Shown: positions 1 to 25,231, numbered from the stretch's first letter. The stretch is 64,000 nt of DNA from an uncultured Nitrospiraceae bacterium (GCA_963727805.1 CAVSHF010000003.1:1184001-1248000), one strand, 5' to 3'. The notes: generated by a model not told the origin, from the letters alone. Numbers and translations are program-made.

Positions 1-984
1 CTTGTCCCATAACTCTATGGGCCATGCATTCCGTACAATCCCATCGTCGAATTTTGAGGCACTGAGGACATCGTTTTCTGTAAGTATGTATTCTCCTGAA
101 ATTCTTTTCCCCTCTCTTTCCATAACACGGAGAGAAGTTTCCACAATAGCAGAGTGCCTGAATTCAGGCAAGGTGTCTGCAAGATAGTGGTGTACCAGAG
201 TTGCATTCTTTTCGGCATCCCGCTCGCGTTCATCCCCTTCGGCACTGTCAAGGCTCATTTTACAGTACCCCTCATCCGGGGTATCGCCAGGACTGTAAGT
301 CGTAAACATTACGGCAGGCGGAAGCATATTCTTTCTGGCCGCTTCGTTTAGGTAATAGGGAACCTTGATCGCAAGGCTTTCATCGTTTCCTTTAATTCCC
401 GTGAGGTGGATCGTGTAGCCAGCCAGTTGTATCTGTTCATTAGGAGCTAATTCAAAAGAAGCCCCTGCCATGGCAGCAACATCTCCGCTCCCCGAACAGT
501 CGATAACCACCTCGGGAATAATGTTGCAGATCGTTCCTGCATGCCCAGCCAATACCTTCCCAATATGTGGTCCTGATTTTTCGACAGCAATTGCAGTTGT
601 CGCATCGTAAACACTCAACAGCGGCTCACTGTTGCAGAGAAAGTTGAAAACATTCCGAAAATCCTCCCTCGAGTAGGGGAGGACGTATACCAGGCCCATC
701 TTTTTCACAACCAGGTGCGGGGAGAGATCATGCAAATGACCGACGACTTCACGAACTATCCCCGGATTGAGTGTCTCCTCCGGAAAGGGGCCGCCATTCA
801 GGTACAACCCGCAGATATGCCTGAGTAGCCCTGCATACCCTGCACCGCCGAGAAAGGTTTCCCTTTCCATCAGTGCCGTCGGAACGCCACTGCGTGCGGA
901 TGCAAGAGCAGCAGCTGTCCCTGAAACCCCTCCTCCAACAACGAGAATACCGACTGGAACATTCTTGATATCTCCGGCGCTCAC
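1..984 (-). CDS. FAD-dependent oxidoreductase (FAD_oxidored-like), 3' end cut by window edge
   Basis: Absent from the ORF track; translated by hand. GTG at 984 overlaps the upstream stop (GTGA). Reads MSAGDIKNVPVGILVVGGGVSGTAAALASARSG...MERETFLGG...VIDCSGSGDVAAMAG...EREGKRISGEYILT, open to base 1. Rossmann GxGxxG motif. Confidence 0.85.
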   Translation of the reverse strand, partial: MSAGDIKNVPVGILVVGGGVSGTAAALASARSGVPTALMERETFLGGAGYAGLLRHICGLYLNGGPFPEETLNPGIVREVVGHLHDLSPHLVVKKMGLVYVLPYSREDFRNVFNFLCNSEPLLSVYDATTAIAVEKSGPHIGKVLAGHAGTICNIIPEVVIDCSGSGDVAAMAGASFELAPNEQIQLAGYTIHLTGIKGNDESLAIKVPYYLNEAARKNMLPPAVMFTTYSPGDTPDEGYCKMSLDSAEGDERERDAEKNATLVHHYLADTLPEFRHSAIVETSLRVMEREGKRISGEYILTENDVLSASKFDDGIVRNAWPIELWDK

Positions 985-2303
985 AAGCTCTCTCTCATTC
1001 TTTTTTCAAACTGCAGGATATCCTCATCCCCTATCAGGCCCTCTATGGAAGAGAGTACAAGGTTGAGCCGTCCGTTGAAATAACTAAAAAAAATTCCCAG
1101 CCCGGGCGGCACCGGGACCCTGGGCATGTGAATAATGTTAACAATCTCAGTGTCCATAAAACGACAGGATGAGGAGGGGCCCTTCCCCAGATAGGAGAAG
1201 CAGAACGAGGCGATTTTCCCTTTAAACGGGATTCGGAATAGTCTTTTCATGATCGACAGGGGTGCGATCCTGGTCAACATGCAAGCCTCGGCAACGTCTG
1301 CGGGCATGCCCGACTTCACCTGATCGTACAACTGCTGCTTGATCATCTGTATTAGACCCCTCAGGTCCCCTGCCTCTCCCGCATGGACATTGAAGAACAG
1401 ATACGAAACATAGTTAAAAAATAATTCCTGCCTGATGTCCTCATTATTTCTCATATCAAGTGAAACGGGAATTACATAATTCAGCGCCATGATTCCTTTC
1501 CTTTGAAAAAGCTCATGTACCGCCTGTACAGTTACCGCTAACAGGTAGGGCATCTCCATAAAGAATCCAGCGGTCCTATTTGCATTATCATAAATTTTTC
1601 CGGTCTCTTCAACTCCGAATGAGACTACCCTGAACCGGAAGCCCTTATCACTGCCTGCCGGTATGGGCAATGCCTCCGGTGCTGTCTTCGAAAGAGAAAT
1701 GATCTTGCGGTTGAGATTTTGTCCCGCTTTGAACTTCCTTCCCCATTCGGAAAGGCATGCTGCGGCCGTCAGGCAAACCCCATCGGTGATCCGGGAACCC
1801 ACAGCTTCGGTCAGATACTGTCGAAACAGGTGCAGAAATGATTCGGCGCCGCGGGCATCGAGCAGACGGTGATCGAACGTCATCGCAAAACAGGCCCGAT
1901 CGCCCCACTGAATGAGATGAAAGGTCAAATGCTCATTATCGTCCTTAAATGGCCTATTGACAAATTGTTCCAGGGAAGGAAGTGCATCGTCAAAGCATGA
2001 AAATGCATCCAAACGGGAGGCACTGAAACTGGGGTTAGCAGTTGCTTTTTTCGGGATTTGCCAATAAGGGGCAAGATTGAGGTCACGAGAGATGTTTCCC
2101 CCAACAACGGGGAACTCTCCTATGAAGCTGTCCAGACGGGAGCGGAGGACCGTCTCTTCTATCTCTCCGTCGAGAACGAGCACAATCTGCGACATATTCC
2201 CTGCGCAGGTCACTGCCTTCAACATGCAATCAAGAGTGCTGATTATCCAGTCGGCACCGGAGAGGTGGCGTTTGCGGCTCGATGACGGGATAACGAATCC
2301 CAT
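981..2303 (-). CDS. Condensation-domain-like / CoA-dependent acyltransferase
   Basis: MTFDHRLLDARG resembles the HHxxxDG motif of CAT-fold acyltransferases; PVSLDMR and C-terminal SYFNGRLNL are typical of the fold; 440 aa. Confidence 0.65.
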   Translation of the reverse strand: MGFVIPSSSRKRHLSGADWIISTLDCMLKAVTCAGNMSQIVLVLDGEIEETVLRSRLDSFIGEFPVVGGNISRDLNLAPYWQIPKKATANPSFSASRLDAFSCFDDALPSLEQFVNRPFKDDNEHLTFHLIQWGDRACFAMTFDHRLLDARGAESFLHLFRQYLTEAVGSRITDGVCLTAAACLSEWGRKFKAGQNLNRKIISLSKTAPEALPIPAGSDKGFRFRVVSFGVEETGKIYDNANRTAGFFMEMPYLLAVTVQAVHELFQRKGIMALNYVIPVSLDMRNNEDIRQELFFNYVSYLFFNVHAGEAGDLRGLIQMIKQQLYDQVKSGMPADVAEACMLTRIAPLSIMKRLFRIPFKGKIASFCFSYLGKGPSSSCRFMDTEIVNIIHMPRVPVPPGLGIFFSYFNGRLNLVLSSIEGLIGDEDILQFEKRMRESL

Positions 2304-2304
2304 A

Positions 2305-2547
2305 CTATAGTTTGGCGGCGATGAATGATGCTAAAGCACGAATCGTTTCGAGGTCTTTTTTTGTGAGATCGAGTTCAATCAGCCGGAGATTGAAACTCTT
2401 TTCTATAAAGACAAGTATTTCGACAAAGCTGAGGGAATCGATGCCCATTTCATGAAGGGGAATTTCGACCGCAAGAGAGGACTTGTCCCTCGATGTTATT
2501 GAGGCAATTCCCTGCCTGAGTCTTTCTTCGATTTCATCTCTTGTCAT
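2305..2547 (-). CDS. Acyl carrier protein
   Basis: 80 aa, MGIDSLSFVEI phosphopantetheine motif. Confidence 0.9.
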   Translation of the reverse strand: MTRDEIEERLRQGIASITSRDKSSLAVEIPLHEMGIDSLSFVEILVFIEKSFNLRLIELDLTKKDLETIRALASFIAAKL

Positions 2548-2551
2548 TTTC

Positions 2552-3610
2552 TTAATTATCCTTTTTCTTCAAATAGATAACAGCTTTTTCGCAGTGACAA
2601 TTATACCTTACGCAACGAATTAATTCAATATTTGCGGCGCCTCCCCTGTCAAGAAGATTCATGCCGTGCGGGTTTTCCAGGACCGGGTTTGCGTAATACT
2701 TCTGCCTCTTGAGCATCAACGCCCCCGCAACGCAATTAAAAGCACTGCCGATCATCATGCTGCCGAATAACGGAGAGTAAGCAGTGAGGGGGAAATCAGC
2801 AGAAAGTGAAGTTAAATAGACAGATTCATCAAGAAGCATGCCGTCAGTGTCGATAATAGTCACATCAGCGGTCTCTTGTTGCTCAGGTGAATTGCCGATT
2901 GTGATCGTACCAACCTTACAGAAGGCCCCCTCTTCCGGGTCCCTGCCAAGCAGAAAGAAAGCAGCGCCTTCGCCGGGCACCTGATATGTTGGGTTGAGAT
3001 TGAACGGCCTGATACATCCATCAGGAGCAGGAGTCAATTTTCTATCATAGACATATCTCATAACATCTCCATACTGGTCGACCGCACCTGCAAGCACATA
3101 ATCGCAACGTCCTTCCTCCAGCCAGAGGCGAGCCAACTGCAACGCATTCTGGCAAGAGTGGAAGAACTGTGTGATCGTCATGGTCGGCCCCTGGATGTTG
3201 AGTGCCTGTGCTATGTATGAGGCAGCCGCATTATGAACGGAGTTTGAAAATGTAGAAGGAGAGACGTTGGCATCACCGTAATCGAGGATAGTATCGAGAA
3301 AGCCGAACGTCGTGACATGCGGACCGAAGGCGGTGGAGAGAATCACCCCGGCTCTTTTGCCCTGAAGGCTGCCCATCCGACTGTACGCTACGGCATCAGA
3401 GGCCGCAAGCACGGACATCCTGCTGAATTTGTCCGAGCGGCGGAGCCCCTTTAAAAGGCTCTTATCCGTGATTGTCCCAAGGTCGACCTGATATGAGAAA
3501 AGCCCAAGCCTATCAACTGCCGGCCTCTGCCACGGACCTTCGAGCGCCTGCTCGAATTGTCCGATGCCAAATCCCCCGGCAAAAGCCAGTCCGATTCCCA
3601 GGATATACAT
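2552..3610 (-). CDS. Ketosynthase-like chain length factor (probably non-catalytic)
   Basis: KS N-terminal similarity (LRRSDKFSRM, FSNSVHNAAASYIA); no xACxS, HGT or GH motifs. Confidence 0.75.
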   Translation of the reverse strand: MYILGIGLAFAGGFGIGQFEQALEGPWQRPAVDRLGLFSYQVDLGTITDKSLLKGLRRSDKFSRMSVLAASDAVAYSRMGSLQGKRAGVILSTAFGPHVTTFGFLDTILDYGDANVSPSTFSNSVHNAAASYIAQALNIQGPTMTITQFFHSCQNALQLARLWLEEGRCDYVLAGAVDQYGDVMRYVYDRKLTPAPDGCIRPFNLNPTYQVPGEGAAFFLLGRDPEEGAFCKVGTITIGNSPEQQETADVTIIDTDGMLLDESVYLTSLSADFPLTAYSPLFGSMMIGSAFNCVAGALMLKRQKYYANPVLENPHGMNLLDRGGAANIELIRCVRYNCHCEKAVIYLKKKDN

Positions 3611-4794
3611 CAGTCACCTACCCTGAACACGAGGGCTGCATTATTCCCTCCGAACGCAAGAGATGTCGAAAGGGCATAGCAACCCTTGATTGAAGTCTTC
3701 TCAATTACCGGTGCTATCCCGATCTCCTCATCGAATGTCCTGAATCCAGCGTTTCCGGGAATCCAGCCATACCTCAATCCCGCAGTAGTAAAGACAGCCT
3801 CGATGCCACCGGCTGCGCCGAGCGTGTGCCCGGTATAGCCCTTTGTGGAGACTATTCTGATCCCGTTGCCGAACAATTCGCCCATCACCCTTCCCTCTAC
3901 CTTATCGTTGTCGGGGGTTGCTGTGCCGTGGGCATTAATGAAGTCGATCTCGTTAGGCCCGATGCCCGATTCCTCAAGTGCCCTTCCAATCGCCCTCTTG
4001 AGCCCGGCGCCATCAGGCCTCGGCGCCGTAAGGTGATAGGCATCGCTCGAAGAACCGTAGCCGGTGAGCTGCACTCCGGAAGTAATGCCTCTCCTGAGCG
4101 CTGAACTCACTGTCTCCATGATGACAACACCAGCCCCCTCCCCAAGATTCAATCCCTTGCGATCCCTATCAAATGGAGCACACATCTCATGACTGACGAT
4201 GCCCAATGAGCCAAATCCGCAGTAAGGCACACGGTTCAACTCATCAGCCCCGCCTGCAATCGCAATATCGCAAAGCCCTCCCCTGAGCCATGACAAGGCG
4301 ATCCCTATTGCGTCAGTGCCTGATGAGCATGCATTCGCAACGGTCAATACCGGACCTCTTGCCCCGATCTTCCTTGCAATAAAATCAGCCAGGTTCCCGT
4401 CGAGGTATCTGTCCACCGGGGTCATAGAAATAGAACCCTCTTTTTGATTCATACACCGGAAGCTACGGTAAAAATCGATATCGTTCAACTGGCTGGCAAT
4501 CGTCGTTCCCATGCAGATACCTACTCGAAGCGCTGACAGTTCATCCTCAAGCTGTGCACTGTTCAGCGCTTCATCAACGGCGCATAATGCCAGGCCCAAT
4601 GTTCTCTGACCCTCGATACAGAATCTGTCGGGTAAGGATAAGGCTTCAAAGACAGGATACGTCAGAGGTGTTTGAAAGAGGGTCACCGGTCCGGCATTTC
4701 TCCTTACAGCTGCAAGAGCATCGAGGTTCTCCGTGAGATTTTCACCCGCTGCGGAGATCACGCCAAGACCTGTTATGAGTGCGCTCTGTTGCAT
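3610..4794 (-). CDS. Beta-ketoacyl-ACP synthase
   Basis: NACSSG, NAHGTAT, KGYTGHTLGAAG, SLAFGGNN. Confidence 0.93.
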   Translation of the reverse strand: MQQSALITGLGVISAAGENLTENLDALAAVRRNAGPVTLFQTPLTYPVFEALSLPDRFCIEGQRTLGLALCAVDEALNSAQLEDELSALRVGICMGTTIASQLNDIDFYRSFRCMNQKEGSISMTPVDRYLDGNLADFIARKIGARGPVLTVANACSSGTDAIGIALSWLRGGLCDIAIAGGADELNRVPYCGFGSLGIVSHEMCAPFDRDRKGLNLGEGAGVVIMETVSSALRRGITSGVQLTGYGSSSDAYHLTAPRPDGAGLKRAIGRALEESGIGPNEIDFINAHGTATPDNDKVEGRVMGELFGNGIRIVSTKGYTGHTLGAAGGIEAVFTTAGLRYGWIPGNAGFRTFDEEIGIAPVIEKTSIKGCYALSTSLAFGGNNAALVFRVGD

Positions 4795-4914: not shown

Positions 4915-5193
4915 CTATTTCTTATTCTCGTAAACATACTTAGCGAGGGTATCGATGGAATAGAAGATCTCCTTTCCCTTTTCCATATCTTTGATCTCAA
5001 TGCCGAAATTCCGCTGCAGGAGGACGACGATCTCAACCGCATCAAGGGAATCCAGTCCCAGTCCCTCGCCGAACAAAATCTCATCGTCCTTGATATCCTC
5101 AGGATTAATGTCCTCCAGAGCTAAATCCTTTACGAGCATCTCTTTCAAACTCTTTCTTATTTGTGCCAATCCGTCCGAATTGCTGTTCTGCAT
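4915..5193 (-). CDS. Acyl carrier protein
   Basis: GLGLDSLDAVEIV motif; start moved to ATG 5193, which follows an AAGGAG SD. Confidence 0.92.
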   Translation of the reverse strand: MQNSNSDGLAQIRKSLKEMLVKDLALEDINPEDIKDDEILFGEGLGLDSLDAVEIVVLLQRNFGIEIKDMEKGKEIFYSIDTLAKYVYENKK

Positions 5194-5209
5194 CGTTACA
5201 CTCCTTAGC

Positions 5210-6127
5210 TCATTTTTCAGCAGCACTTTTATTTATATTCCATAAATCGCTATAGACAAACCACTGGAAAGGATGCAGACCGGCATACTCTTCCAATATC
5301 GAGGCAAACTCCTGGACGCAGCCCCTGATCCTCTCATGCTTTTTGCCTCTCGAACCCGCAGGGGGTACTATGAGATGGGAAACGTCCACTAAATATTTCG
5401 TTGTTGCGATCTTCGTCGACAGAAGGACCACCACCGGGCATTGCGCTGCGGCTGCTATTGCGAATGCGGCGTAGGGAAGATTCACCGTTTCCCCAAATAA
5501 AGTGGCCTCAACACTATTATCGCCATAACTACGGTCCCCCATTATTGAAACTATATTACCCTCACTAATGGCCTTCATCATTTCGACAACGCCATCGAGG
5601 AATTGCTCTGGAGCGATGACCCTTATTCTGTTATCTTCATTATCAATGTTCAGGGTGCTTTTTACAGCAATGTTATCCTCAGGTCGCATCAGCAGATAGA
5701 CGGTCCTCCTGAATCTTTCAAGGGCGATCATCGCAATTTGCCAGTTGCCGACATGAGCGGTCACCAGCACAACACCTTTTCGGGTCTCATCCAATAAGGT
5801 ATTTAGTTTATCATATCCGTAAATTTCGACGTCAAATGTGCGGAGCCCTGAAATAGCGGCGTAGCGATCGATAAGGTTCTTTCCCTGATTTATGAATATC
5901 CTGTAGACGCAGAGTATCCTCCGAAGGGAGCCCGCTCCTTTAAACCGTCTCTTTACGTATGCCATGCAGGATAAAAATGCCGCCCTATCAAAAAAAAGGT
6001 AGTAGAGACAAACGAAATAGAGGAGCCCATAAGCTCCTGGAAGACCAAACAGCTTTAGAGAGGCCCCGAAGATCCAGAATCCCAACCGGTTCCCCCTTTT
6101 TTTGATTGCAGTTCCCCCCCCCGACAT
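5210..6127 (-). CDS. LpxL-like lipid acyltransferase
   Basis: VTAHVGNW, MGDR and C-terminal PFQWF motifs. Confidence 0.8.
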   Translation of the reverse strand: MSGGGTAIKKRGNRLGFWIFGASLKLFGLPGAYGLLYFVCLYYLFFDRAAFLSCMAYVKRRFKGAGSLRRILCVYRIFINQGKNLIDRYAAISGLRTFDVEIYGYDKLNTLLDETRKGVVLVTAHVGNWQIAMIALERFRRTVYLLMRPEDNIAVKSTLNIDNEDNRIRVIAPEQFLDGVVEMMKAISEGNIVSIMGDRSYGDNSVEATLFGETVNLPYAAFAIAAAAQCPVVVLLSTKIATTKYLVDVSHLIVPPAGSRGKKHERIRGCVQEFASILEEYAGLHPFQWFVYSDLWNINKSAAEK

Positions 6128-7305
6128 CAGTTACGCCTTGTCTTTTGTACAAGGAGTGCGGAAGCGTAAAAAAAAGCTCCAACAAGAACAGCACCGGCCG
6201 GAGCGATGATCAGAGAGCCTAGAAACCACTCAAACAGCCGGGAGGAAAACTGGGAAAAAACTGTTGCAAAAGACAGGTCCGTAAGCCACTGGCCATGTCG
6301 CAGGTAGTATCCAACTTCGATACAGAGGGCAGGCACAAAAGGGGGCATGCAGAGGTGTTGTACGCTGACCGCCACGACTTTATTCAAGCTGAGACGCGTG
6401 GCAACATAGAGGATGACCAATGTGTGGACGAACAACAGCGGAAGCACGGCAAAAAAAATACCCACAGCCGCTGCCATGGCCAGTCCTCCAGGGGTTGCGT
6501 TTTCCTTTAACAGCATCATGAGAAACTTGCCAGGATGCCTCAGAAACGTGAAGTCAGGTTTGTTACCGCGTTCCACAAATTTCTTGTGTCTCAAGGGCAG
6601 CAGGCGCCTCCCCACCAGCATAGAGTGAATAAGCGAAAGACGCAGATTGTCGAGAAACGGCCTGAAGCTTGATACACGCTCTTCAGGTTTGGGATAATAG
6701 ACATCTATTGGCACAGGCCGGAGACGCAATCCGGCCCAGACTGCTTTCGCCAGGACCTCGGCCTCGAAATCGTAGTGGAGCCCCTTGAATTGCAATTGAT
6801 TCAAATACCTGACCGGATAGGCACGGAAGCCGCTCTGGCAATCGTCGATCCCCACGCCGGTCTCTACCCGTAACCAGAAGTTGGCAAACTTCCTTCCGAA
6901 CCGGCTCTTTTCCGGGACATTGCTGGTATCGAAATTTCTGCAGCCGATGATAATGTCTGAATCACTTTCCGATATCAGGGGAATGAATTTCCTGATATCC
7001 TCCGGATAGTGCTGTCCATCGGCATCGATGGTGATCATATAAAGTCCTCTCTGCTCCTCTATATAGCGTGCAGCTGTAAGGATCGCGACCCCCTTGCCCA
7101 AATTCTTCTCATGTCTCAGCAGCTTGACATCAAGACCGGACAGTAAGGCAGCAACGTTGGCATCAGTACTTCCGTCATCGATGACAACCACCTGCCTGAG
7201 AAGGGCACGACACCCTGCTGCAACGGCCCTCACCGTCTCTTTATTATTGAAGACAGGTATAGCACACCATATTCTGTCCAATGCCATAGATCTGCTATCC
7301 TGCAC
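6127..7305 (-). CDS. Glycosyltransferase family 2 with C-terminal DUF2062-like membrane domain
   Basis: IPVFNN, IDDGSTD, NLGKG, IDADGQH, DCQSGFR; hydrophobic C-terminus; probable GTG start overlapping the upstream TAG. Confidence 0.85.
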   Translation of the reverse strand: MQDSRSMALDRIWCAIPVFNNKETVRAVAAGCRALLRQVVVIDDGSTDANVAALLSGLDVKLLRHEKNLGKGVAILTAARYIEEQRGLYMITIDADGQHYPEDIRKFIPLISESDSDIIIGCRNFDTSNVPEKSRFGRKFANFWLRVETGVGIDDCQSGFRAYPVRYLNQLQFKGLHYDFEAEVLAKAVWAGLRLRPVPIDVYYPKPEERVSSFRPFLDNLRLSLIHSMLVGRRLLPLRHKKFVERGNKPDFTFLRHPGKFLMMLLKENATPGGLAMAAAVGIFFAVLPLLFVHTLVILYVATRLSLNKVVAVSVQHLCMPPFVPALCIEVGYYLRHGQWLTDLSFATVFSQFSSRLFEWFLGSLIIAPAGAVLVGAFFYASALLVQKTRRN

Positions 7306-12187: not shown

Positions 12188-12580
12188 CTACTCTTCTTTC
12201 CCAACAAATCGGGCGCGCAATTTTATTTCAGCAGCTTTCAGGTCGCCTTTGCCAACAATCGCCTTTACAATAAAAACCTCACCGTTGGCCCTGATAACGC
12301 TAATGTCCCTGCACACGCATTTCAGCTCTTCCATGGGGAAGACAGGTACAAAGAACTTGGCGAGGACGATCTCATCTATAATGAGCTTTTTACTTTTCAT
12401 CTTTTCGAGCGACGCAGTGACGCATTGAATCTGGCAGATACCCGGCAGGAGCTTCCTTGAAGGGAAATGTCCCTGAAAGCCTATAAAGTCCTCGGGAAAA
12501 ACAAAATGAGTAGTGAGTGTCCCATCCGACTCAGTGAATCCGGTCATGCATTGCGCGACTTCCTTGCTGATAGAGCTCAC
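12188..12580 (-). CDS. FabZ/ApeI-like hotdog dehydratase
   Basis: FQGHFPSRKLLPGICQI motif. Confidence 0.82.
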   Translation of the reverse strand: MSSISKEVAQCMTGFTESDGTLTTHFVFPEDFIGFQGHFPSRKLLPGICQIQCVTASLEKMKSKKLIIDEIVLAKFFVPVFPMEELKCVCRDISVIRANGEVFIVKAIVGKGDLKAAEIKLRARFVGKEE

Positions 12581-17761: not shown

Positions 17762-19101
17762 TAGTTTGTTCTCCTATCTTTGAAGCGAATTAATTTGCGC
17801 GAGTTCTCAGCGCATACCTCTTTTCGGATGCTCTCTTCACTTGCTATGATAACTTCGGGTCTTATCCTCAAATGCGCCTGCAGCTTGTCCATGATCGTTT
17901 CTGCAGAACATGAATCATCCTTAAGGGAAACATATATCCTCACCTGATCGGAGAGATCAAAGTCGTTTGTTACTTCAAGGTAGTATTCACTGATCTCGCC
18001 GATCTCGTCGAGGACAGAGTGTATAGCGTTGGGATAGAGCGTCGTACCGCGGCACTTTATCATCTGTTTTTTTCTCCCCATTATCGGCCCGAGCCGGAGA
18101 GAGTTTCTTCCGCATGCGCAGGGACCCTCTATTAGGAAGCTCACATCACCGGTTTTAAAGCGCAGCAGGGGCATGCCCTCGATGGACAACGGAGTCACCA
18201 CAACCTCGCCAACATCACCGTGCGGAAGGGTCTCCCCTTCGTCATTGACAATCTCTACGATCGCAAGGTCAGGATGGAGATGCCCGCCTCGCATGGAAGT
18301 GCATTCGCAGAATGTCGTTATTGTTTCCGAAGATGCGTACGTGGAAAATACCGCTGCCCCCCATATTGCTTCAAGGTATTCCCCTATCTTTAGCAGTGAA
18401 AGGTCCTTGTCCCTGATAGGCTCGCCTATGCACACAAGCCTCTTCACGCCGATCTCGCGTGGATCGATATTTTGAGATTTCAGGAACTGCCCCAGCTTGA
18501 GCAGCAATGTCGGAACTCCCACAATCGCCGTTGGTCTCATCTGCTGAATAATTTCCCGATGGCTTGCCATGCTGCTGATGCCATTTCTTATGACAGCGGC
18601 ACCGAGGCCCCTTGCCCCCGAATAGTAAGCCAGTCCAGCGATAAAGCACCTGTCCATCGTGCAGGTAAGAAGGACCACATCGTCCTGCATAAGGCCGCAG
18701 CTGGCAAGGGATATCTTTTCGTTGTAAGCCAGTCGCTTGAGGTCATGTTCAGTATACATGATTCGCGTTGGCTTTCCGGTCGTCCCCGACGACATAACAA
18801 TATCGACGACTTTTGACATGGGTACAGCAAGAAAATCATCATTGTATTCTTCAATTGCGTTCTTATCGGTAAAAGGTAAACAAGAGAGCTTATTGAGATT
18901 AACACTGTCGATTTCCACCCCTCTTAACACCCGACCGTAGTAAGGAGAATGTGAAGAAAGATAGCGCAGATGCTCCATCAGAAGCGTCTCCTGCAACTCC
19001 CTGATCATCGCAGTTCCGGAGAACTCAATACCACTATATTTTCCGATCATTCCCTGGCCAATCATCCCTTGTTCCGTCTTTCCATTTGTTCTCGCCAACA
19101 C
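17761..19101 (-). CDS. Phenylacetate-CoA ligase family AMP-binding enzyme
   Basis: SSGTTGKP, TYASSE, PLLRFKTGD, CACGR motifs; start uncertain. Confidence 0.88.
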   Translation of the reverse strand: MLARTNGKTEQGMIGQGMIGKYSGIEFSGTAMIRELQETLLMEHLRYLSSHSPYYGRVLRGVEIDSVNLNKLSCLPFTDKNAIEEYNDDFLAVPMSKVVDIVMSSGTTGKPTRIMYTEHDLKRLAYNEKISLASCGLMQDDVVLLTCTMDRCFIAGLAYYSGARGLGAAVIRNGISSMASHREIIQQMRPTAIVGVPTLLLKLGQFLKSQNIDPREIGVKRLVCIGEPIRDKDLSLLKIGEYLEAIWGAAVFSTYASSETITTFCECTSMRGGHLHPDLAIVEIVNDEGETLPHGDVGEVVVTPLSIEGMPLLRFKTGDVSFLIEGPCACGRNSLRLGPIMGRKKQMIKCRGTTLYPNAIHSVLDEIGEISEYYLEVTNDFDLSDQVRIYVSLKDDSCSAETIMDKLQAHLRIRPEVIIASEESIRKEVCAENSRKLIRFKDRRTN

Positions 19102-19106: not shown

Positions 19107-19853
19107 TTAATTCTCCATGAGCTGCAGCTCATTAGAGATGATCTCACGTACCTTATTTTTCAGCGAAAATACAGTCAGATCCTTGTACTCCGCCCAGGTT
19201 ATGGCTGGCAATCGGCGCACCCTGATGGTCCCTGGTCTCAGGAGCAGGGAGCCTTTCGGGGGGATATTCTCGTTTCCCGAGATGCAAAGGGGAACAATGG
19301 GGGCTTTTGATTTCAAGGCAAGCCGGAATGCCGAGCCATGGAAATTACCCATTTGTTTTCCTCCCGAGCGTGTCCCCTCAGGGAAAAATATGATAGAGAC
19401 CTTTTCTTTCAGGAGTATGACTGCCTGTTCAAAGAAGAGATCAGGCGGCATATTTTTTATATTTAGGTACCCCGACATCCTAGCATAAAAACCAAGGACA
19501 GGAATACGGAACGGCCATGTATTGACGATCTGAACAGCCTCATGCGGGAGTACGCACATTAGGAAGGCATCGGATGAAGATCGGTGATTACTTACAAAGA
19601 TATAAGGTTCCTCAGTATCCCCCTTTGAGCTGTCCTCATAACGGAGCTTTATAAATGGAAAAGGAATGGACGTCACAAGGATTCCATACCAGCTGATAGC
19701 ACGGCGGAAACGTTTCATTGCGCTGCGATGTGACATAAAGACCGACAGAACAGCAACGAGGACCGTCAAAAGCGGAATGCTTACTGCAGAGAGCAGGAGG
19801 ATAAGCGTATAAATATAGATATTGAGACAATAAAGCTTGAAATTGCTCATCAT
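19107..19853 (-). CDS. PlsC-type lysophospholipid acyltransferase
   Basis: SNHRSSSD (HxxxxD) and FPEGTRS. Confidence 0.9.
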   Translation of the reverse strand: MMSNFKLYCLNIYIYTLILLLSAVSIPLLTVLVAVLSVFMSHRSAMKRFRRAISWYGILVTSIPFPFIKLRYEDSSKGDTEEPYIFVSNHRSSSDAFLMCVLPHEAVQIVNTWPFRIPVLGFYARMSGYLNIKNMPPDLFFEQAVILLKEKVSIIFFPEGTRSGGKQMGNFHGSAFRLALKSKAPIVPLCISGNENIPPKGSLLLRPGTIRVRRLPAITWAEYKDLTVFSLKNKVREIISNELQLMEN

Positions 19854-19855
19854 TC

Positions 19856-20113
19856 TTACGTCGTCTCTTGCTCTTTTATTGCGAAGATGAATTGATAAAC
19901 ATCCTGAAGTGTCCGGATGTCCCTCACCTTGTCATCATTGCGTATCTTGACCCCGAAGCTCTTTTCAAGGGCAACCACAAGGTCGACGGCATCGAGACTG
20001 TCCAGTCCCAGGTCATTGAAGATATGCGCCTGAGGCTGTAATTTTTCCTTCTCTATCTCAAAAGACTCCTCAAACACTTTATTCGTAATATTGATTATCT
20101 CCTGCTCAGTCAT
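19856..20113 (-). CDS. Acyl carrier protein
   Basis: DLGLDSLDAVDLV; start ATG 20113 overlaps the KS stop. Confidence 0.92.
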   Translation of the reverse strand: MTEQEIINITNKVFEESFEIEKEKLQPQAHIFNDLGLDSLDAVDLVVALEKSFGVKIRNDDKVRDIRTLQDVYQFIFAIKEQETT

Positions 20114-21369
20114 TTGCTTCCTCCATTGGATTTTCCTGCGCCCTCGGAACGCCTGCATAGTAGTGCGGCATTGATGCCGCCAAATGCAAAACCGTTCTTC
20201 AGGATTGTCGTGATCTTTTTGCCGGTCTTCTCTGTAACATGATTAATCCCCCCGCAATCAGGACTGACAGTATCGAGGTTCCTAGTCGGATAAACGACCG
20301 ATCTCTCCATCATCATCAGGGAGGCGATCAGTTCAATCGCGCCTGAAGCACCCAGGGTATGGCCGATATGTCCCTTAAGGCTGCTTACCGGAACAGAATC
20401 CCCGAACACTTCTCTGATAGCCTCAGCCTCTTCCGTGTCACCCTGAAGCGTTGCCGTTGCATGAGCGTTGATATAATCCACTTCATCCGGCGCAATCCGA
20501 GCATCTTTCATTGCCTCTCTCATGCAGTGGATCATGGAATCCCTGTTGGACTGGCTCACATGAGCACCGTTTCCGCTTGTAGAATAGCCGAGGATTTCAG
20601 CGTAAATCTTTGCATCCCTGCCGACGGCCCGTTCATACTCTTCCAAAACCAATATTCCGCTCCCCTCTCCGCAGACGAGTCCGTCACGTTCTTTGTCAAA
20701 AGGCCTGGGGGTCTTTTGAGGGGTCTGGTTATAATTAGTTGAGGTAGCATAAAGTATATCGAAAGAGCCTGTCACCGTCGGGTGAAGCTCTTCGGCCCCG
20801 CCGCAAAGCATGATCTCCTGCCTCCCCAACCTTATCAGGTCATAGCCGGTACCGATGGCCTGGAGAGAGGATGCGCAGGCTGCAGAGGTAGCCATTATAT
20901 AACCGCTCAATTCGAGATATTGGGCGACATTCACCGCCGCCGTATGAGACATGCACTGGAAAAACATCGAGGAGTTGAGCTGGCTAATGTCCCTGTCGGG
21001 AAGCATTATTTCGAAGGTATCATTGATACTCTTGGCGCTCCCCATGGTTGAGCCGATAACGCATCCGACTTGCCATGTCTGCATTCCGGGCAGCGCAATG
21101 CCCGCGTCAGCAAGTGCCTGCTCTGCAGCTTGGGCGGCGAAGATGCTCATGCGGCCCATAGTGCGCCTCTTTTGTCGCGGTATCTTCTTCTCATCCCGTA
21201 TCTCGGCAGGAGCGCCAACAAGACTGCGCAGACCGATATACCGGTCCCAACCCTCCATATAGCGCACGGCGCTTCGTCCTTCCTCAATCCCCTCCATCAG
21301 TGCATGCACATCGTTTCCAAAAGGAGAGACGGCACCCACCCCTGTGATCACTACTCTTTTCAGCTGCAT
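20110..21369 (-). CDS. Beta-ketoacyl-ACP synthase (FabF/FabB-like)
   Basis: AACASS, NAHATAT, KGHIGHTLGASG, FAFGGIN. Confidence 0.93.
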   Translation of the reverse strand: MQLKRVVITGVGAVSPFGNDVHALMEGIEEGRSAVRYMEGWDRYIGLRSLVGAPAEIRDEKKIPRQKRRTMGRMSIFAAQAAEQALADAGIALPGMQTWQVGCVIGSTMGSAKSINDTFEIMLPDRDISQLNSSMFFQCMSHTAAVNVAQYLELSGYIMATSAACASSLQAIGTGYDLIRLGRQEIMLCGGAEELHPTVTGSFDILYATSTNYNQTPQKTPRPFDKERDGLVCGEGSGILVLEEYERAVGRDAKIYAEILGYSTSGNGAHVSQSNRDSMIHCMREAMKDARIAPDEVDYINAHATATLQGDTEEAEAIREVFGDSVPVSSLKGHIGHTLGASGAIELIASLMMMERSVVYPTRNLDTVSPDCGGINHVTEKTGKKITTILKNGFAFGGINAALLCRRSEGAGKSNGGSK

Positions 21370-22871
21370 AAATACCTGCGCAGAAATGAGTTGTATTGTT
21401 CCTCTTTTATAAGAGACCTCCCGACAATAAACGAAGACATCATTGCGCCAATTATCCCTGGCAACAGAGAACTTTGGCCCGCTGCGTAAAGGTTCCGCAG
21501 TGGAAGCTTTCCGAAGAGATTGTATTGTCCCATCTTCTGCTTTATTCCGTAGGCAGCCCCGTCATAATTGTTCAGATAATCCCTGAACGTCAGTATTGAT
21601 GCAGAATCATAGGCTTTCAGGCGTCCTCGGTATTGCGGAAAGACAGTAAAAATCCGCTCCATGGTACGCTCAACCTTTCTCTTTTTATAATCGTAGTATG
21701 CCTGTGGTCTTTTCCCGACCGTCAGGCCTTTCCATGCCGCAACATGCTCTGGAGCGGAGGGCTCGCAGGTATTAATGACCTTGTGAATCTTCTCACCCTC
21801 TTGCTCCACCGATTTGATGAGTACCAGTGCCGAATCACCTTCGCTTGCAGCATCAAGGAGCTCATTGATGTCATGATTAGGGAGGAGCGTAATGATAGAC
21901 GCATCGAAATCGGGATCATCATCTCCCGGAGCAAGAGCTGAAAAAACGGAAAAAAATCCGGAGGACGGCTCGAATGATGCAACCCTGTTCATAAAGGCCT
22001 TGCTCAAATGTTTCTCAGGCAGGATCTTTACTATCTCTTTGGGATGTATCGTGAGAATACAATTGTCAGCCGATACTTCCTCGCCGGTATTCAGAATGAA
22101 ACGTCCGACCCTGTTGTTGGAGATATCGGCCATTTCCGCGATGTGCGTCCCGCAACGAATTTCGATATCGTGGTCCACAAATCGTGATTTAAAGGCCTTT
22201 ATGAATGCTCCGCCGCCGCCCTTGACCCGCGCGACCGATTCGTACAAGCCAATGCATATCCTGCTGTGATTGGCAAACGAAACCTCTTGAGGTTTTACCC
22301 CATAGCACATCGCGAAACCGCAGAGCAAAGCCTTTAGCATAGAGTTCCTTGTCAACCCGTTCAACACATCTTCAAGTGAAACGTAGTCCTCATCCAAAGA
22401 CGTATGCAAGGCGTCAAGTGTGCGTAAATTCATCGAGGGGGTCCGATCACAGACGCTTTGGACTTTATCGAAGTATCTGTCGACAGCCTCGGCCTCTTTC
22501 GGGAAATATCCCTTGAATTTATTTTTCATTCTTTCAATCCCATAAGGGATTTCATAGAGCTTGCCTTCAGACTCAAGGATAAACTGGTTGGCGCTGTCTT
22601 CGGTCAGGAAGATCGGCTGTATTAAATCACGGATACCCAGAACAACAAGGATTTCATCGAGTATCCCCCCTTTTTGGAGTCCCCCAGTGAAATGGAAGCC
22701 GGTATCGAATGGTATCCCTCCCCTGCAAAACCGCGACATCGACCCGCCGATAGCTGGACTCTTTTCCAGAAGTAAAACCTTTCTCCCGTTCAGGGCGAGA
22801 ATAAGGCTCATCGTTAGTCCGCTGATGCCACTCCCGACCACAATATCATCATATTTTTTTATGTTCGACAT
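21360..22871 (-). CDS. Phytoene desaturase family FAD oxidoreductase
   Basis: VVGSGISGL, FDTGFH, GAAYG, NLYAAGQ; start set at ATG 22871. Confidence 0.85.
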   Translation of the reverse strand: MSNIKKYDDIVVGSGISGLTMSLILALNGRKVLLLEKSPAIGGSMSRFCRGGIPFDTGFHFTGGLQKGGILDEILVVLGIRDLIQPIFLTEDSANQFILESEGKLYEIPYGIERMKNKFKGYFPKEAEAVDRYFDKVQSVCDRTPSMNLRTLDALHTSLDEDYVSLEDVLNGLTRNSMLKALLCGFAMCYGVKPQEVSFANHSRICIGLYESVARVKGGGGAFIKAFKSRFVDHDIEIRCGTHIAEMADISNNRVGRFILNTGEEVSADNCILTIHPKEIVKILPEKHLSKAFMNRVASFEPSSGFFSVFSALAPGDDDPDFDASIITLLPNHDINELLDAASEGDSALVLIKSVEQEGEKIHKVINTCEPSAPEHVAAWKGLTVGKRPQAYYDYKKRKVERTMERIFTVFPQYRGRLKAYDSASILTFRDYLNNYDGAAYGIKQKMGQYNLFGKLPLRNLYAAGQSSLLPGIIGAMMSSFIVGRSLIKEEQYNSFLRRYLCS

Positions 22872-22881
22872 AGAGCCACCA

Positions 22882-23625
22882 CTACATCGATATCCCGCCG
22901 TTGACACCGATGACCTGTCCATGAATATACATATTCTCTTCAGTGCACAGGAAATTGACTACTGAAGCAACATCCTCAGGTCGGCCGAAGCGGTTAACGG
23001 GGATTAATGTAAGAATCTGCTCTTTGGCAAGATTTTCTGTCATATCTGTTTCAATAAAGCCAGGGGCAACCACGTTGACATACACTTTCTTTTTTCCCAC
23101 CTCACGAGCCAGGGCCTTTGCTGCGCCAATCAGGCCGGCTTTAGAAGCAGAATAATTGACTTGACCCGCCTGGCCGATTTGGCCTGCAGTAGAGGAGATC
23201 ACTACAACTCGCCCTCTCTTTTCCTTCAGCATCGAAAACAGCACTGTACGGGTCACATTAAAAAACCCGTCCAGATTTGTAGAAAGAACGGTATCCCATT
23301 CCTCTTTTTTCATCCAAAGTAAAAGGTTATCCTTGGTAATCCCTGCGTTGTACACCAGGACATGCGGAGCATTCTCCTCAACTCTGGCGCTCAGGGCGAC
23401 TACCGTCTCCTCATAGCTGGAGACATCAAACGGGATTAATTCACAGGTCATTCCTGTTTTTTCTATCTCCGCTCTGACCTGGTGAGCGGCGTCATGATTG
23501 CTCTTATACGTGAGCCAGATAGAAAATCCGGACTGCGCCAATCGCAAAGCAATAGCACGTCCTATCCCTCGGCTGCCGCCAATTATTAACGCAATATTAT
23601 TATGATTCATAAGTGCATTTTTCAA
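22882..23625 (-). CDS. fabG: 3-oxoacyl-ACP reductase (cluster copy)
   Basis: GGSRGIG, NAGIT, YSASK, APGFIET; start TTG 23625 or ATG 23610. Confidence 0.9.
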   Translation of the reverse strand: MKNALMNHNNIALIIGGSRGIGRAIALRLAQSGFSIWLTYKSNHDAAHQVRAEIEKTGMTCELIPFDVSSYEETVVALSARVEENAPHVLVYNAGITKDNLLLWMKKEEWDTVLSTNLDGFFNVTRTVLFSMLKEKRGRVVVISSTAGQIGQAGQVNYSASKAGLIGAAKALAREVGKKKVYVNVVAPGFIETDMTENLAKEQILTLIPVNRFGRPEDVASVVNFLCTEENMYIHGQVIGVNGGISM

Positions 23626-23631
23626 ACCTGT

Positions 23632-23660
23632 AGTCTACATATTTTCAGTTTTCTTTTCAA
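23632..23660 (-). promoter_or_regulatory. Putative sigma70 promoter of the lipid operon
   Basis: Minus strand TTGAAA-N17-TAGACT immediately upstream of fabG. Confidence 0.55.
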
Positions 23661-23776
23661 ATAATCGAGGCCCGTATGACTATGTTTTCAACATTATTAT
23701 GATAAACTTATACAAATACAATCAAGTTTGGATTATAATTGTTAACTTAAGAACTTTCACCGATGCATAAATAACA

Positions 23777-25231
23777 TTGACAGAAAAAAAGAAAATATTA
23801 CTGGTCCATCCACTGGGAGAGAACTGGATGCCTGGCGAGCAAGATATGTCGCGCATTACCAATATCATGCCGCCCCAGGGTCTACTTTCCTTGGCGGCCT
23901 GGGTAGAAAAACACGGGCATCAGACGGCAATTCATGACTGCTATGCATTTCCTGGACTGGACAATGGAATTTATAGTTATTTAAAAGAACAACGCCCTGA
24001 TTTTGTTGGGTTCTCCACAACAACTTCCAGCTTTTTGGACGGCATACGTCTGGCAGAGCAGGCAAAAAAAATATTACACTCCGTAAAGGTTGTCTTTGGT
24101 GGAGTCCATATGTCGGCACTGCGGGATCAGCTTCTGCGTGATTTCCCGATTATAGATTACGGAGTAGTCGGCGAGGGCGAAGAGACGCTATTGGAACTAA
24201 TGGAATCGGATGGCAATGGACTGCGTGACATTGAAGGGCTCGTCTTCCGTGAAAAAGATGATATCATTTTCAACGGCTTCAGAAAAAAGCTGCTCGAAAT
24301 GGATTCACTGCCGTTTCCCTCTTATGAGAAATTACACGGATTCCCTGACAGTTATCAATTACCCATTTTCAGCTATCCCAAAGCGCCCAATACCACGGTC
24401 ATCACAAGCCGCGGTTGTCCGTATACCTGCTCGTACTGTGATCGTTCAGTCTTCCGCCGCACCTATCGTTATAATTCACCTGAGTATATGGTGGAATATA
24501 TGTTCCACCTGCAGAGCCGTTTCAATATCAGACATGTCATTATCTATGACGATACATTCACTCTTAAGCGCCAGAGGGTGATCGACTTCTGCGAGCTCAA
24601 GATTAAATCAGGCCTTAAGATGACATTCAATTGTGCCGCCCGTACCGAGCAGCTTGATTTCGAGATGCTCAAACTCTTAAAAAAAGCCGGCTGCTGGATG
24701 ATCAGTCTCGGCATCGAGACGGGTGATCCCGAGCTGCTGAAAAAACATCGGTCCTATTTACCCAATAATAAAATGGACAATCCGCTCGAAAATATCCGCG
24801 ATATGGTCCATCTTATCAGAAAAGCGGGTATCCGCGTTAAAGGGCTTTTTATGCTTGGCCTGCCCGGTGAAACAGAACAGAGCATCAGCAATAGCATGAA
24901 TTATGTGTTCACTCTTCCGCTCGATGAGTTCAATCTGACCAAGCTTACTCCCTTCCCCGGCGCACCTATATACAACGGGATTCGCGAGCAGGGCAGTTTT
25001 GAAGAGAACTGGGAGTTGATGAACGCCCTCAATTTTATCTTTGTTCCCAAAGGATTCACAAAAGAGCGGCTGGAAGAATGCCACCGAGAATTCTATCGCC
25101 GTTATTTTTCGAGAACTAAGATCCTGCTGAAATATGTAACAATGATCTGGAAATCGCCCCACAGCTGGCAGCGTTTTATAAAGAATTTACCGACTTTTTT
25201 ACGTTTCAGAAGAGGATATACAAAGAAGTAG
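23777..25231 (+). CDS. B12-binding radical SAM protein
   Basis: PPQGLLSLAA, GGVH, VGEGE, SRGCPYTCSYC, TPFPGAP; divergent from the operon. Confidence 0.9.
   Translation: MTEKKKILLVHPLGENWMPGEQDMSRITNIMPPQGLLSLAAWVEKHGHQTAIHDCYAFPGLDNGIYSYLKEQRPDFVGFSTTTSSFLDGIRLAEQAKKILHSVKVVFGGVHMSALRDQLLRDFPIIDYGVVGEGEETLLELMESDGNGLRDIEGLVFREKDDIIFNGFRKKLLEMDSLPFPSYEKLHGFPDSYQLPIFSYPKAPNTTVITSRGCPYTCSYCDRSVFRRTYRYNSPEYMVEYMFHLQSRFNIRHVIIYDDTFTLKRQRVIDFCELKIKSGLKMTFNCAARTEQLDFEMLKLLKKAGCWMISLGIETGDPELLKKHRSYLPNNKMDNPLENIRDMVHLIRKAGIRVKGLFMLGLPGETEQSISNSMNYVFTLPLDEFNLTKLTPFPGAPIYNGIREQGSFEENWELMNALNFIFVPKGFTKERLEECHREFYRRYFSRTKILLKYVTMIWKSPHSWQRFIKNLPTFLRFRRGYTKK

What the first reader, a model, noticed from the sequence alone, without database searches (positions are those of the whole stretch)
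1..25231. Radical-SAM-rich specialised lipid cluster combining aryl-polyene and ladderane-candidate gene sets
Seen: at least 25 genes, mostly overlapping or a few bp apart, encoding a complete second type II FAS/PKS with four radical SAM enzymes, two flavoenzymes, acyl- and glycosyltransferases and an exporter. A separate housekeeping fabG-acpP-fabF sits at 61-63 kb. Established: KS/CLF, ACPs, thioesterase, LolA, MMPL, DUF3261 and GT make up aryl polyene clusters. Phenylacetate-CoA ligase, phytoene-desaturase-like and B12 radical SAM genes beside fab genes mark the ladderane-candidate clusters of anammox bacteria and their relatives in Geobacter-like anaerobes, whose products are unresolved as far as I know. 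Inference: this cluster makes an uncharacterised, radically modified (methylated, cyclised or cross-linked) exported membrane lipid. It is the best candidate in the window for an undescribed system.
Basis: partly seen in the sequence, partly recalled or inferred. Interest (0 to 1): 0.85.

Follow-up and report, generated by a model that had tools for sequence, protein, structure and literature searches.

The report
Six-radical-enzyme orphan lipid gene cluster
A sulfur-cycling, probably anaerobic bacterium carries a real, widely conserved 33-kb gene cluster that likely builds and exports an unknown outer-membrane lipid modified by up to six radical enzymes; it is a variant of the 'ladderane-like' clusters known since 2009, for which no product turned up in the papers searched.

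Summary
Observation confirmed: 25 genes at 1-25231, plus a separate housekeeping fabG-acpP-fabF. The cluster continues about 8 kb left of the window (33 kb in all) and holds six radical-SAM genes, not four: four B12-type, one SPASM-type fused to an ApeP-like dehydratase half, one HemN-like. Gene 7305-8678 belongs to the curated family TIGR04072 (612 bits, cut-off 360), so this is the 'ladderane-like' cluster kind of Rattray 2009. It is not the anammox Cluster I, and the host has no hydrazine synthase. It is a sister subtype, near-identical in gene order in 9 related genomes, with three ketosynthase systems, aryl-polyene-lipid transfer and export genes, and a ligase/ACP/stand-alone condensation-enzyme module. 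Best reading (about 50%): an aryl-polyene-lipid-like outer-membrane glycolipid with two or three custom chains, tailored mainly by radical C-methylation; ring formation stays possible. No solved product was found in the papers searched. The scan has reported this cluster type before on other DNA. New here: 23 of 36 relatives of the SPASM-dehydratase fusion have lost the catalytic motif, so that enzyme's radical chemistry looks dispensable. Expression is not shown.

The parts
1..984 (-). FAD oxidoreductase (PF12831), 410 aa in full; runs off the window. Beyond it, in locus L002 (window position = L002 position minus 10000): B12 radical SAM 8275-9768, acyl-AMP ligase 6849-8273, unknown 6078-6686 (+), PagL-like barrel 5298-5912 (+), HemN-like radical SAM 3802-5199, polysaccharide deacetylase 2584-3597, methyltransferase 1872-2594
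   Evidence: model ties geranylgeranyl reductase and FixC folds at Z about 21; membership of flank genes
981..2303 (-). Stand-alone condensation-fold (CAT-fold) enzyme, motif DHxxxDA
   Evidence: H145 and D149 invariant in 120 of 120 aligned homologues; model pLDDT 83; best match AzeD, Z 33.6, rmsd 3.5, 407 aligned, next Z 27.7
2305..2547 (-). ACP3 (carrier of the ligase/condensation module)
   Evidence: PP-binding; DSL serine motif
2552..3610 (-). CLF2, triad-less KS (Phe at the Cys position)
   Evidence: no Cys there in 9 of 9 orthologues
3610..4794 (-). KS3, intact Cys-His-His
4915..5193 (-). ACP2
5210..6127 (-). Lipid A/LPLAT-family acyltransferase (ApeJ-acyltransferase-like)
   Evidence: PF03279
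6127..7335 (-). GT2 glycosyltransferase fused to DUF2062
7305..8678 (-). B12 radical SAM, member of TIGR04072 (rSAM_ladder_B12)
   Evidence: 611.8 bits, cut-off 360
8642..9913 (-). B12 radical SAM of no named family, directly upstream of the TIGR04072 gene in the close clusters
   Evidence: 71-81% identity in 9 of 9 close clusters
9910..10575 (-). CLF1, short triad-less KS (221 aa)
10572..11747 (-). KS2, intact Cys-His-His
11702..12187 (-). 4HBT thioesterase (ApeK-like)
12188..12580 (-). ApeI-like dehydratase half: His present, Gln in place of the acid residue
12577..13251 (-). DUF3261 lipoprotein (ApeN-like)
   Evidence: 22.2 bits, at cut-off
13248..15629 (-). MMPL/RND exporter (ApeM-like)
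15622..16299 (-). LolA-like carrier
   Evidence: flexirubin LolA2 118 bits, cut-off 125
16277..17761 (-). Radical SAM/SPASM enzyme fused to an ApeP-like dehydratase half (Glu present, His absent)
   Evidence: fused in 9 of 9 close clusters; catalytic motif intact here, lost in 23 of 36 fused representatives
17761..19101 (-). PaaK/FlxY-like acyl-CoA ligase
   Evidence: FlxY 461 bits, cut-off 520
19107..19853 (-). PlsC-family acyltransferase (ApeD-like)
19856..20113 (-). ACP1
20110..21369 (-). KS1, ApeR-like, intact triad
   Evidence: PRK09116 446 bits, cut-off 470; PDB 7f27 342 bits against 278 for the next family (7f27 = ApeR is recalled)
21360..22922 (-). CrtI/phytoene-desaturase-like flavoenzyme
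   Evidence: all carotenoid families far below cut-off
22882..23625 (-). FabG-type ketoreductase
23777..25231 (+). Divergent B12 radical SAM that belongs to the cluster
   Evidence: 77% orthologue lies inside the operon in G006; 46-49% homologues end the operon in 5 more genomes

Best explanation
This 33-kb cluster encodes three ketosynthase systems, three carrier proteins, lipid-transfer and export proteins and six radical-SAM enzymes, and it likely makes an outer-membrane glycolipid built like an aryl-polyene lipid, whose two or three custom acyl chains are probably C-methylated by the cobalamin radical enzymes. Steps: (1) two ligases load starter acids on ACPs (enzyme class shown, substrates unknown). 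(2) KS1 (ApeR-like), KS2/CLF1 and KS3/CLF2 extend chains; FabG and a split ApeI/ApeP dehydratase give conjugated enoyl chains, since the cluster has no enoyl reductase (active sites shown, pairing and products inferred). (3) The two flavoenzymes adjust saturation or geometry (inferred). (4) The four B12 enzymes, four old and separate orthologue groups, each act at one site, most likely by methyl transfer; the HemN-like enzyme is an optional extra methylase or cyclopropanase; the SPASM domain is tethered to the dehydratase and may be partly structural (inferred). (5) The PlsC-like, GT2 and LPLAT enzymes assemble a glycerol-phosphate-sugar lipid as ApeD/ApeJ are proposed to do, and the stand-alone condensation enzyme adds the ACP3 chain as an amide or ester (inferred). 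(6) MMPL, LolA and DUF3261 move the lipid to the outer membrane (inferred by analogy).
For: All classes of the aryl-polyene core set (KS, CLF, ACP, DH, KR, transporter) plus ApeD/J/K/L/N-like genes are present; that set makes a glycerol-phosphate-GalNAc lipid with two custom chains in Xenorhabdus (10.1101/2020.12.19.423268). Three intact KS and two triad-less partners adjacent to KS2 and KS3. The two hot-dog halves carry complementary His and Glu in 10 of 10 clusters (FabZ roles recalled) and are fused into one 300-aa ORF in G052. Ligase + ACP + stand-alone C domain with a (D/H)HxxxD(S/A) motif is the layout of the OaaA/ACP/C acyl-transfer pathway (PMC13310621; our motif). The left-flank B12 enzyme scores best on the hopanoid methylase HpnR (250 bits, cut-off 650). 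The genome has a cobamide operon. Gene order is conserved across Nitrospirota and Desulfobacteraceae records.
Against: No product, mutant or enzyme assay exists for any member found here. No B12 enzyme reaches the cut-off of a methylase family, and B12 radical enzymes also form rings (GrsA/B, HpnJ; PMC13459092). No aromatic amino-acid lyase in the 100%-complete genome, and the PaaK-like ligase is missing from the G247 cluster, so an aryl head is unproven. KS2 and KS3 are below the cut-off of the ApeO-type family (192 and 292 of 407). The condensation enzyme's best structural match is a dehydratase, AzeD. The KS3-to-ligase module is transcribed separately in G006 and occurs without most of the cluster in G366 and G564, so it may make its own product.
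Confidence: 0.5

Rival explanations
1. The radical enzymes mainly form C-C bonds: the product is a ring-containing (cyclopropane, cyclobutane or cyclopentane) or cross-linked acyl lipid, a non-anammox counterpart of ladderanes or jawsamycin chains.
For: TIGR04072 member. A HemN-like enzyme sits inside the operon next to KS3 in 3 of 9 close clusters and in this genome; Jaw5, a HemN-like enzyme, cyclopropanates enoyl chains (PMC13459092). A radical SAM/SPASM domain is fused to the dehydratase half, where enoyl-ACP forms. B12 enzymes GrsA/B form rings in lipids.
Against: Desulfotalea psychrophila, with syntenic clusters, had no detectable ladderanes (PMC2649909). The cluster lacks Cluster I features and the host lacks hydrazine synthase. 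HemN is absent from 6 of 9 close clusters and no orthologue was found in 5 of 5 whole genomes searched (best 27%). The SPASM fusion has lost its catalytic motif in 23 of 36 representatives.
Confidence: 0.2
2. It is an anaerobe's aryl-polyene/flexirubin-type pigment lipid; the radical enzymes only decorate the aromatic head or supply the starter.
For: FlxY-like ligase (461 of 520 bits), FlxB-like reductase (307 of 340), LolA2 (118 of 125) and an ApeR-like KS; deacetylase, LolA, GT and exporter are flexirubin cluster genes (PMC3992019). A related Verrucomicrobia locus has an aromatic amino-acid lyase beside the TIGR04072 gene (L031).
Against: No lyase in this genome; no sign of a DarB-type enzyme (indirect); all three flexirubin families are below cut-off; two flavoenzymes could remove conjugation; six radical enzymes exceed what a phenyl head needs.
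Confidence: 0.13
3. Two pathways share the locus: an envelope lipid (or lipid A/amino-sugar acylation) from the main operon, and a separate fatty-acid amide or ester from the KS3-CLF2-ACP3-condensation-flavoenzyme-B12-ligase module.
For: Module is divergent from the main operon in G006 and stands apart in G366 and G564; OaaC-like motif; lipid A acyltransferase family gene, PagL-like barrel and deacetylase are present.
Against: The module is joined to the main operon in 8 of 9 close clusters and depends on FabG and dehydratase outside it.
Confidence: 0.12
4. It is the anaerobic polyunsaturated fatty acid/hydrocarbon pathway proposed by Rattray 2009.
For: C31:8/C31:9 hydrocarbons were found in D. 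psychrophila (PMC2649909).
Against: The reviewers called each link weak; the Kuenenia CrtI-like proteins had no phytoene desaturase activity (PMC4790861); long-chain hydrocarbons are tied to Pfa/Ole enzymes elsewhere (PMC6463001, search listing and start of abstract only); glycosyl-, acyl-transfer and export genes point to a complex lipid.
Confidence: 0.05

Closest known systems
Extended FASII 'ladderane-like' clusters: Kuenenia kuste3335-3352 and syntenic Desulfotalea/Geobacter/Pelobacter loci (Rattray 2009, PMC2649909); NCBIfam TIGR04072
   Same: TIGR04072 member; PaaK-like ligase followed by a radical SAM/SPASM gene; CrtI-like flavoenzyme; several FabF paralogues with dead partners (Phe at the Cys position as in Kuste2805 and the G. 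sulfurreducens paralogue); GT, MMPL-type protein, deacetylase; product unknown.
   Different: The Kuenenia gene order is found in G007 (same genus) and G010, whose TIGR04072 proteins are only 33-36% identical to ours. Our subtype adds the tandem B12 pair, a split ApeI/ApeP dehydratase with the SPASM fusion instead of FabZ, DUF3261, and the ACP/condensation/flavoenzyme/B12/ligase module. The named Kuenenia and Desulfotalea proteins could not be aligned; Rattray's gene-map figure was not visible.
Aryl polyene lipid (ape) clusters of E. coli CFT073 and Xenorhabdus doucetiae
   Same: Every class of core, transfer and export gene (ApeC/O/R, E/F, I/P, Q, D, J, K, L, M, N-like).
   Different: Third KS system and third ACP, six radical SAM genes, two flavoenzymes, condensation enzyme; KS2/KS3 below the ApeO-type cut-off; ligase is PaaK/FlxY-like; aryl starter unproven.
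Flexirubin cluster (Chitinophaga pinensis flxA-Y)
   Same: FlxY-, FlxB- and LolA2-like genes, deacetylase, GT, exporter, several KS.
   Different: All below family cut-offs; no tyrosine ammonia-lyase in the genome; no sign of DarAB; radical SAM genes.
Anammox Cluster I (kuste3603-3608), the present ladderane candidate
   Same: KS with a triad-less partner, ACP, CrtI-like flavoenzyme, B12 radical SAM.
   Different: Our dead KS are truncated (352, 221 aa) with Phe/Glu, not about full length with Val/Thr; dehydratase is ApeI/ApeP-type, not FabZ; host is not anammox.
OaaA/OaaACP/OaaC fatty-acid-amide pathway; AzeD stand-alone C protein
   Same: Ligase + ACP + free-standing condensation-fold enzyme; DHxxxDA motif fits the OaaC-type motif; fold closest to AzeD.
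   Different: 12% identity to AzeD; embedded in a KS/CLF, flavoenzyme and B12 radical SAM module; acceptor unknown; clade membership not tested.

Membership tests
TIGR04072 rSAM_ladder_B12 | Score above curated cut-off 360 | tested here: met
   611.8 bits for 7305-8678
Rattray 2009 ladderane-like FASII clusters | At least two FAS genes and two accessory genes (radical SAM, CrtI-like, PaaK-like, MMPL) | tested here: met
   By family assignment; criterion from PMC2649909
Rattray 2009 ladderane-like FASII clusters | At least 20% identity over 70% of length to the Kuenenia proteins | not testable with these tools
   Named Kuenenia/Desulfotalea sequences could not be retrieved as queries
Kuenenia kuste3335-3352 subtype | Order ligase - rSAM - rSAM - FabG - ACP - FabZ - MT - membrane protein - CrtI-like - GT | tested here: not met
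   Met by G007 and G010, not by this cluster
Anammox Cluster I | Near full-length amxFabFmut with Val/Thr at the catalytic Cys | tested here: not met
Anammox Cluster I | FabZ-type dehydratase (amxFabZ) | tested here: not met
   ApeI-like and ApeP-like halves; no FabA/FabZ Pfam match
Ladderane producers | Anammox host (hydrazine synthase) | tested here: not met
   No PF18582 match in a 100%-complete genome; dsrA present
Ladderane producers | Ladderane lipids detected | not testable with these tools
   Needs lipid analysis
Aryl polyene (ape) cluster | Core classes KS, CLF, ACP, DH (I and P), KR, transporter | tested here: met
   core list
Aryl polyene (ape) cluster | ApeO-type ketosynthase | tested here: not met
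   PRK09185 292 and 192 bits, cut-off 407 (PRK09185 = ApeO-type is recalled)
Aryl polyene (ape) cluster | Aromatic starter loaded by an ApeH-type enzyme | tested here: inconclusive
   Two ligases of unknown substrate; no lyase; 4-hydroxybenzoate supply not tested
Flexirubin cluster | Tyrosine ammonia-lyase FlxA | tested here: not met
   PF00221 absent from the genome
Flexirubin cluster | DarA/DarB dialkylresorcinol enzymes | tested here: inconclusive
   Only one full KS III-type gene and one fragment in the genome; no DarAB-specific model searched
OaaC-type fatty-acid-amide C domains | (D/H)HxxxD(S/A) motif with adjacent ACP and ligase | tested here: met
   D144 117, H145 120, D149 120, A150 117 of 120; motif from PMC13310621
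OaaC-type fatty-acid-amide C domains | Member of the FAA phylogenetic clade; amide-forming activity | not tested
   No reference set; best fold match is AzeD
Jaw5/C10P cyclopropanases | HemN-like class C radical SAM orthologous to Jaw5/C10P | tested here: inconclusive
   HemN-like (PF06969), best ChuW/HutW 185 of 400 bits; PDB HemN and NocN at equal distance

The most novel reading that the evidence does not exclude
Sulfur-cycling Nitrospirota and other anaerobes make an undescribed class of outer-membrane glycolipid whose ACP-built chains are cyclised or cross-linked by cobalamin and HemN-type radical SAM enzymes: non-anammox counterparts of ladderanes, giving the first handle on radical C-C chemistry in acyl lipids and a new biomarker for anoxic sediments.
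Probability: 0.2. Interest if true: 0.85.

Novelty: new variant of a known kind. Interest (0 to 1): 0.5.

Why it matters
[quoted passage not shown] A conserved cluster with four B12 enzymes in separate orthologue groups, common in one Nitrospirota family (28 of 64 genomes hold the condensation enzyme), would add a large group of lipid-modifying radical enzymes and an unknown envelope lipid of anaerobes. It also helps the ladderane question by exclusion: this gene set occurs widely outside anammox bacteria. The limits are that the cluster kind has been known since 2009, the scan has met it repeatedly, and the named carriers found here are nearly all uncultured.

Tried and rejected
Expression: contigs from two wetland RNA runs cover 25 and 29 of 30 bins of 1-20000, but almost all are under 99% alike (relatives), and a neighbouring stretch is covered as well (25 and 27 of 30), with no silent control; transcription is not shown. 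Complex prediction for the tandem B12 pair could not be run because the queue was full, so no verdict on binding. PDB sequence search gave no close solved relative for the condensation enzyme, the PF12831 flavoenzyme or the unnamed B12 enzyme. The flavoenzyme fold search ties reductases, FixC and halogenases (Z 19-21) and does not fix the reaction. KS3's best PDB hit 9s5h_B (207 bits) is no better than B. subtilis FabF (203 bits), so it is not evidence of amxFabF2 orthology. ACP3 gave only generic ACP hits. The methyltransferase and the 202-aa ORF of the left flank have no counterpart at E 1e-5 in 9 of 9 close clusters, so their membership is unsupported. No composition anomaly: 48.1% GC against 47.6% for the contig. 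Promoter-like sites in the divergent gap (5 found, 1.6 expected) are only consensus matches. A direct link deacetylase - free amine - condensation enzyme was considered; the deacetylase has a lipoprotein-like N-terminus (weak), which would place it outside the cytoplasm. The P. carbinolicus genome paper and the amxFabZ paper did not discuss these clusters in the passages searched.

Full report
Observation. The 25 genes are real and at the stated place: 24 on the minus strand from fabG (22882-23625) to a flavoenzyme that runs off the left end, and one divergent B12 radical SAM gene at 23777-25231. 21 of 24 junctions overlap or are within 5 bp. Housekeeping fabG-acpP-fabF lies at 61061-63344. 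The window is G000:C3:1184001-1248000 of a 3.9-Mb genome rated 100% complete. The nearest named loci are Thermodesulfovibrionia/Nitrospirota records (63-72% identity for the 7305-8678 protein), so that affiliation is inferred. The genome has dsrA and a cobamide operon (cobU, cobT, cobS, cobQ, cbiB, cobB above cut-off), and no hydrazine synthase or aromatic amino-acid lyase match.

True extent. The left flank (L002) adds a B12 radical SAM, an acyl-AMP ligase, an unknown ORF, a PagL-like barrel, a HemN-like radical SAM, a polysaccharide deacetylase and a methyltransferase; the span is 33,360 bp. I compared 9 close clusters, picked because they hold a cluster gene on a long contig. 22 of the 24 minus-strand genes are in 9 of 9; thioesterase and PaaK-like ligase in 8 of 9; flank ligase 8 of 9; flank B12 enzyme 7 of 9; deacetylase 7 of 9; divergent B12 enzyme 6 of 9; HemN-like 3 of 9; PagL-like 3 of 9; methyltransferase and unknown ORF 0 of 9. 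So about 30 genes belong, with six radical SAM genes, all with CxxxCxxC. A quick tree of 44 B12 enzymes from stored clusters puts the four B12 enzymes in four separate, well-supported orthologue groups (careful search unfinished); pairwise identity is 20-26%.

Distribution. The condensation-enzyme profile matches 35 of 301 genomes of the own phylum (G000 included), 28 of 64 in one family and 0 of 23 others sampled from the own family, and 5 of 401 genomes of the phylum of a Desulfobacteraceae record. TIGR04072 is over cut-off in 9 of 41 near relatives, G000 included. Within the genus two subtypes coexist: G006 has ours; G007 has deacetylase, KS, CLF, methyltransferase, KS, unknown, ligase, SPASM, TIGR04072, FabG, ACP, FabZ, methyltransferase, MMPL, CrtI-like, GT, which follows the order of Kuenenia kuste3351-3335 as listed in PMC4790861 Table 2.

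Anatomy. KS1, KS2 and KS3 keep Cys-His-His; CLF1 and CLF2 do not, in 9 of 9 orthologues for the Cys position. KS1 is ApeR-like. No enoyl reductase, FabD, FabH or PPTase is among the scanned ORFs. The dehydratase is split: the ApeI-like protein has His but Gln at the acid position, and the ApeP-like domain at the end of 16277-17761 has the Glu but no His, in 10 of 10 clusters (catalytic roles recalled from FabZ). In G052 the two halves are one ORF. Protein 981-2303 has no Pfam family above threshold but folds as an NRPS condensation domain (pLDDT 83; Foldseek; AzeD Z 33.6, next 27.7), with DHxxxDA nearly invariant in 120 homologues. That motif fits OaaC-type acyl-ACP transferases (PMC13310621), while AzeD is a dehydratase with PHxxxDG (10.64898/2026.07.17.738954); acyl transfer is preferred because of the adjacent ACP and ligase. 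The PF12831 flavoenzyme model ties geranylgeranyl reductase and FixC folds.

The SPASM fusion. A search of 1.84 billion cluster representatives returned the best 150 relatives. 36 of them are full-length SPASM-plus-hot-dog fusions; 13 keep the radical SAM CxxxCxxC motif and 23 have lost it, 13 of those 23 keeping all seven SPASM cysteines checked; 63 of 63 unfused homologues of 330-400 aa keep the motif (the unfused set includes enzymes from other contexts). A FastTree of the fused proteins needs 5 changes, at least 3 forced by strong branches. The window's copy is intact. This suggests that in many lineages the domain serves as an Fe-S or scaffold partner of the dehydratase, and that it is not the enzyme that defines the product. 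Genomic context of these 36 proteins was not checked.

Mechanism. Aryl-polyene lipids are glycerol-phosphate-GalNAc lipids with two custom chains, assembled by ApeD and ApeJ and exported by ApeM/L/N as proposed by Grammbitter et al. (PMC8253772). This cluster has each of those classes plus a third KS/ACP system with its own transfer enzyme, so the best reading is a similar outer-membrane glycolipid with two or three custom chains, tailored by radical enzymes. Methylation is favoured because it is the usual reaction of B12 radical SAM enzymes (established knowledge; PMC13142503 abstract start) and one enzyme scores best on HpnR, but none passes a methylase cut-off and ring-forming members exist. 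Enzyme classes, active sites and synteny are shown; substrates, pairings and product are inferred.

Comparison with what is known. Rattray et al. 2009 described such clusters in Kuenenia, Desulfotalea, Geobacter and Pelobacter and found no ladderanes in D. psychrophila. Expression of the Kuenenia candidates in E. coli did not give ladderanes, and the CrtI-like proteins had no phytoene desaturase activity. Current work centres on Cluster I (kuste3603-3608) and still reports no direct link to ladderanes (10.64898/2026.05.19.726425). antiSMASH 'ladderane' clusters were reported as expressed in many non-anammox phyla, with unknown function (PMC9902471). Searches returned no paper with a solved product or a description of this Nitrospirota subtype; the library lacks most subscription papers. 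Earlier scan notes report the same cluster type, the tandem B12 pair and the ACP/condensation module in other genomes.

What I saw of each paper. PMC2649909: parts 1-5 of 7, no figures. PMC4790861: part 1 and passages. 10.64898/2026.05.19.726425: parts 1, 3, 4 of 6 and passages. PMC13459092, PMC8253772, PMC3992019, PMC9902471, PMC3543383, 10.64898/2026.07.17.738954: passages. PMC10139942: term search with no hits, abstract start. 10.1101/2020.12.19.423268: whole main text. PMC13310621: abstract and section 8. PMC6463001 and PMC13142503: search listing and abstract start. No supplements were read; the gene maps in Rattray's Fig. 4 and the supplements of these papers could show a locus closer to this subtype than I could establish.

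Verdict. A real, intact, unusually rich member of a known orphan cluster family; a new variant rather than an undescribed system. Interest 0.5: the product is a long-standing open question and the cluster offers six candidate radical enzymes, but the kind is catalogued, widespread and already met by the scan.

Noticed in passing
window 16277-17761 and proteins P0241-P0390: The radical SAM/SPASM-ApeP dehydratase fusion is a broad family in which 23 of 36 full-length representatives have lost the CxxxCxxC motif, more than once, often keeping the SPASM cysteines; some carry a further FabA-like, LolA or acyltransferase domain.
   Followed up: partly
G007 (L039-L040), G010 (L043-L044): Relatives in the same genus and family carry a different cluster with the Kuenenia kuste3335-3352 gene order, plus further radical SAM and ATP-grasp genes upstream.
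   Followed up: partly
L038:6011-8965, L021:2346-5538: A BadFG-type ATPase with two 2-hydroxyacyl-CoA-dehydratase-like genes lies beside the KS genes in other TIGR04072 clusters.
   Followed up: no
L031:3858-5420: A Verrucomicrobia locus has an aromatic amino-acid lyase directly after the tandem B12 pair.
   Followed up: no
G000:C3:755854-757143 (L074:7854-9143): A second TIGR04072-like gene (331.6 bits, below cut-off) with no lipid genes recognised among its neighbours.
   Followed up: partly
G247 (L066-L067): An otherwise complete cluster lacks the PaaK-like ligase between the acyltransferase and the SPASM gene.
   Followed up: no
window 26426-27852: A two-domain glyoxalase-family gene and a small ORF draw far more RNA contig depth from relatives than their surroundings in two wetland runs; depth sums several organisms.
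   Followed up: no
L057:6070-9047 (G045): An alpha/beta-hydrolase-radical SAM/SPASM fusion and a GT28-like gene are inserted between ACP2 and the deacetylase.
   Followed up: no
window 40196-42288: A radical SAM/SPASM gene directly upstream of uroporphyrinogen decarboxylase, probably heme biosynthesis and unrelated to the cluster.
   Followed up: no
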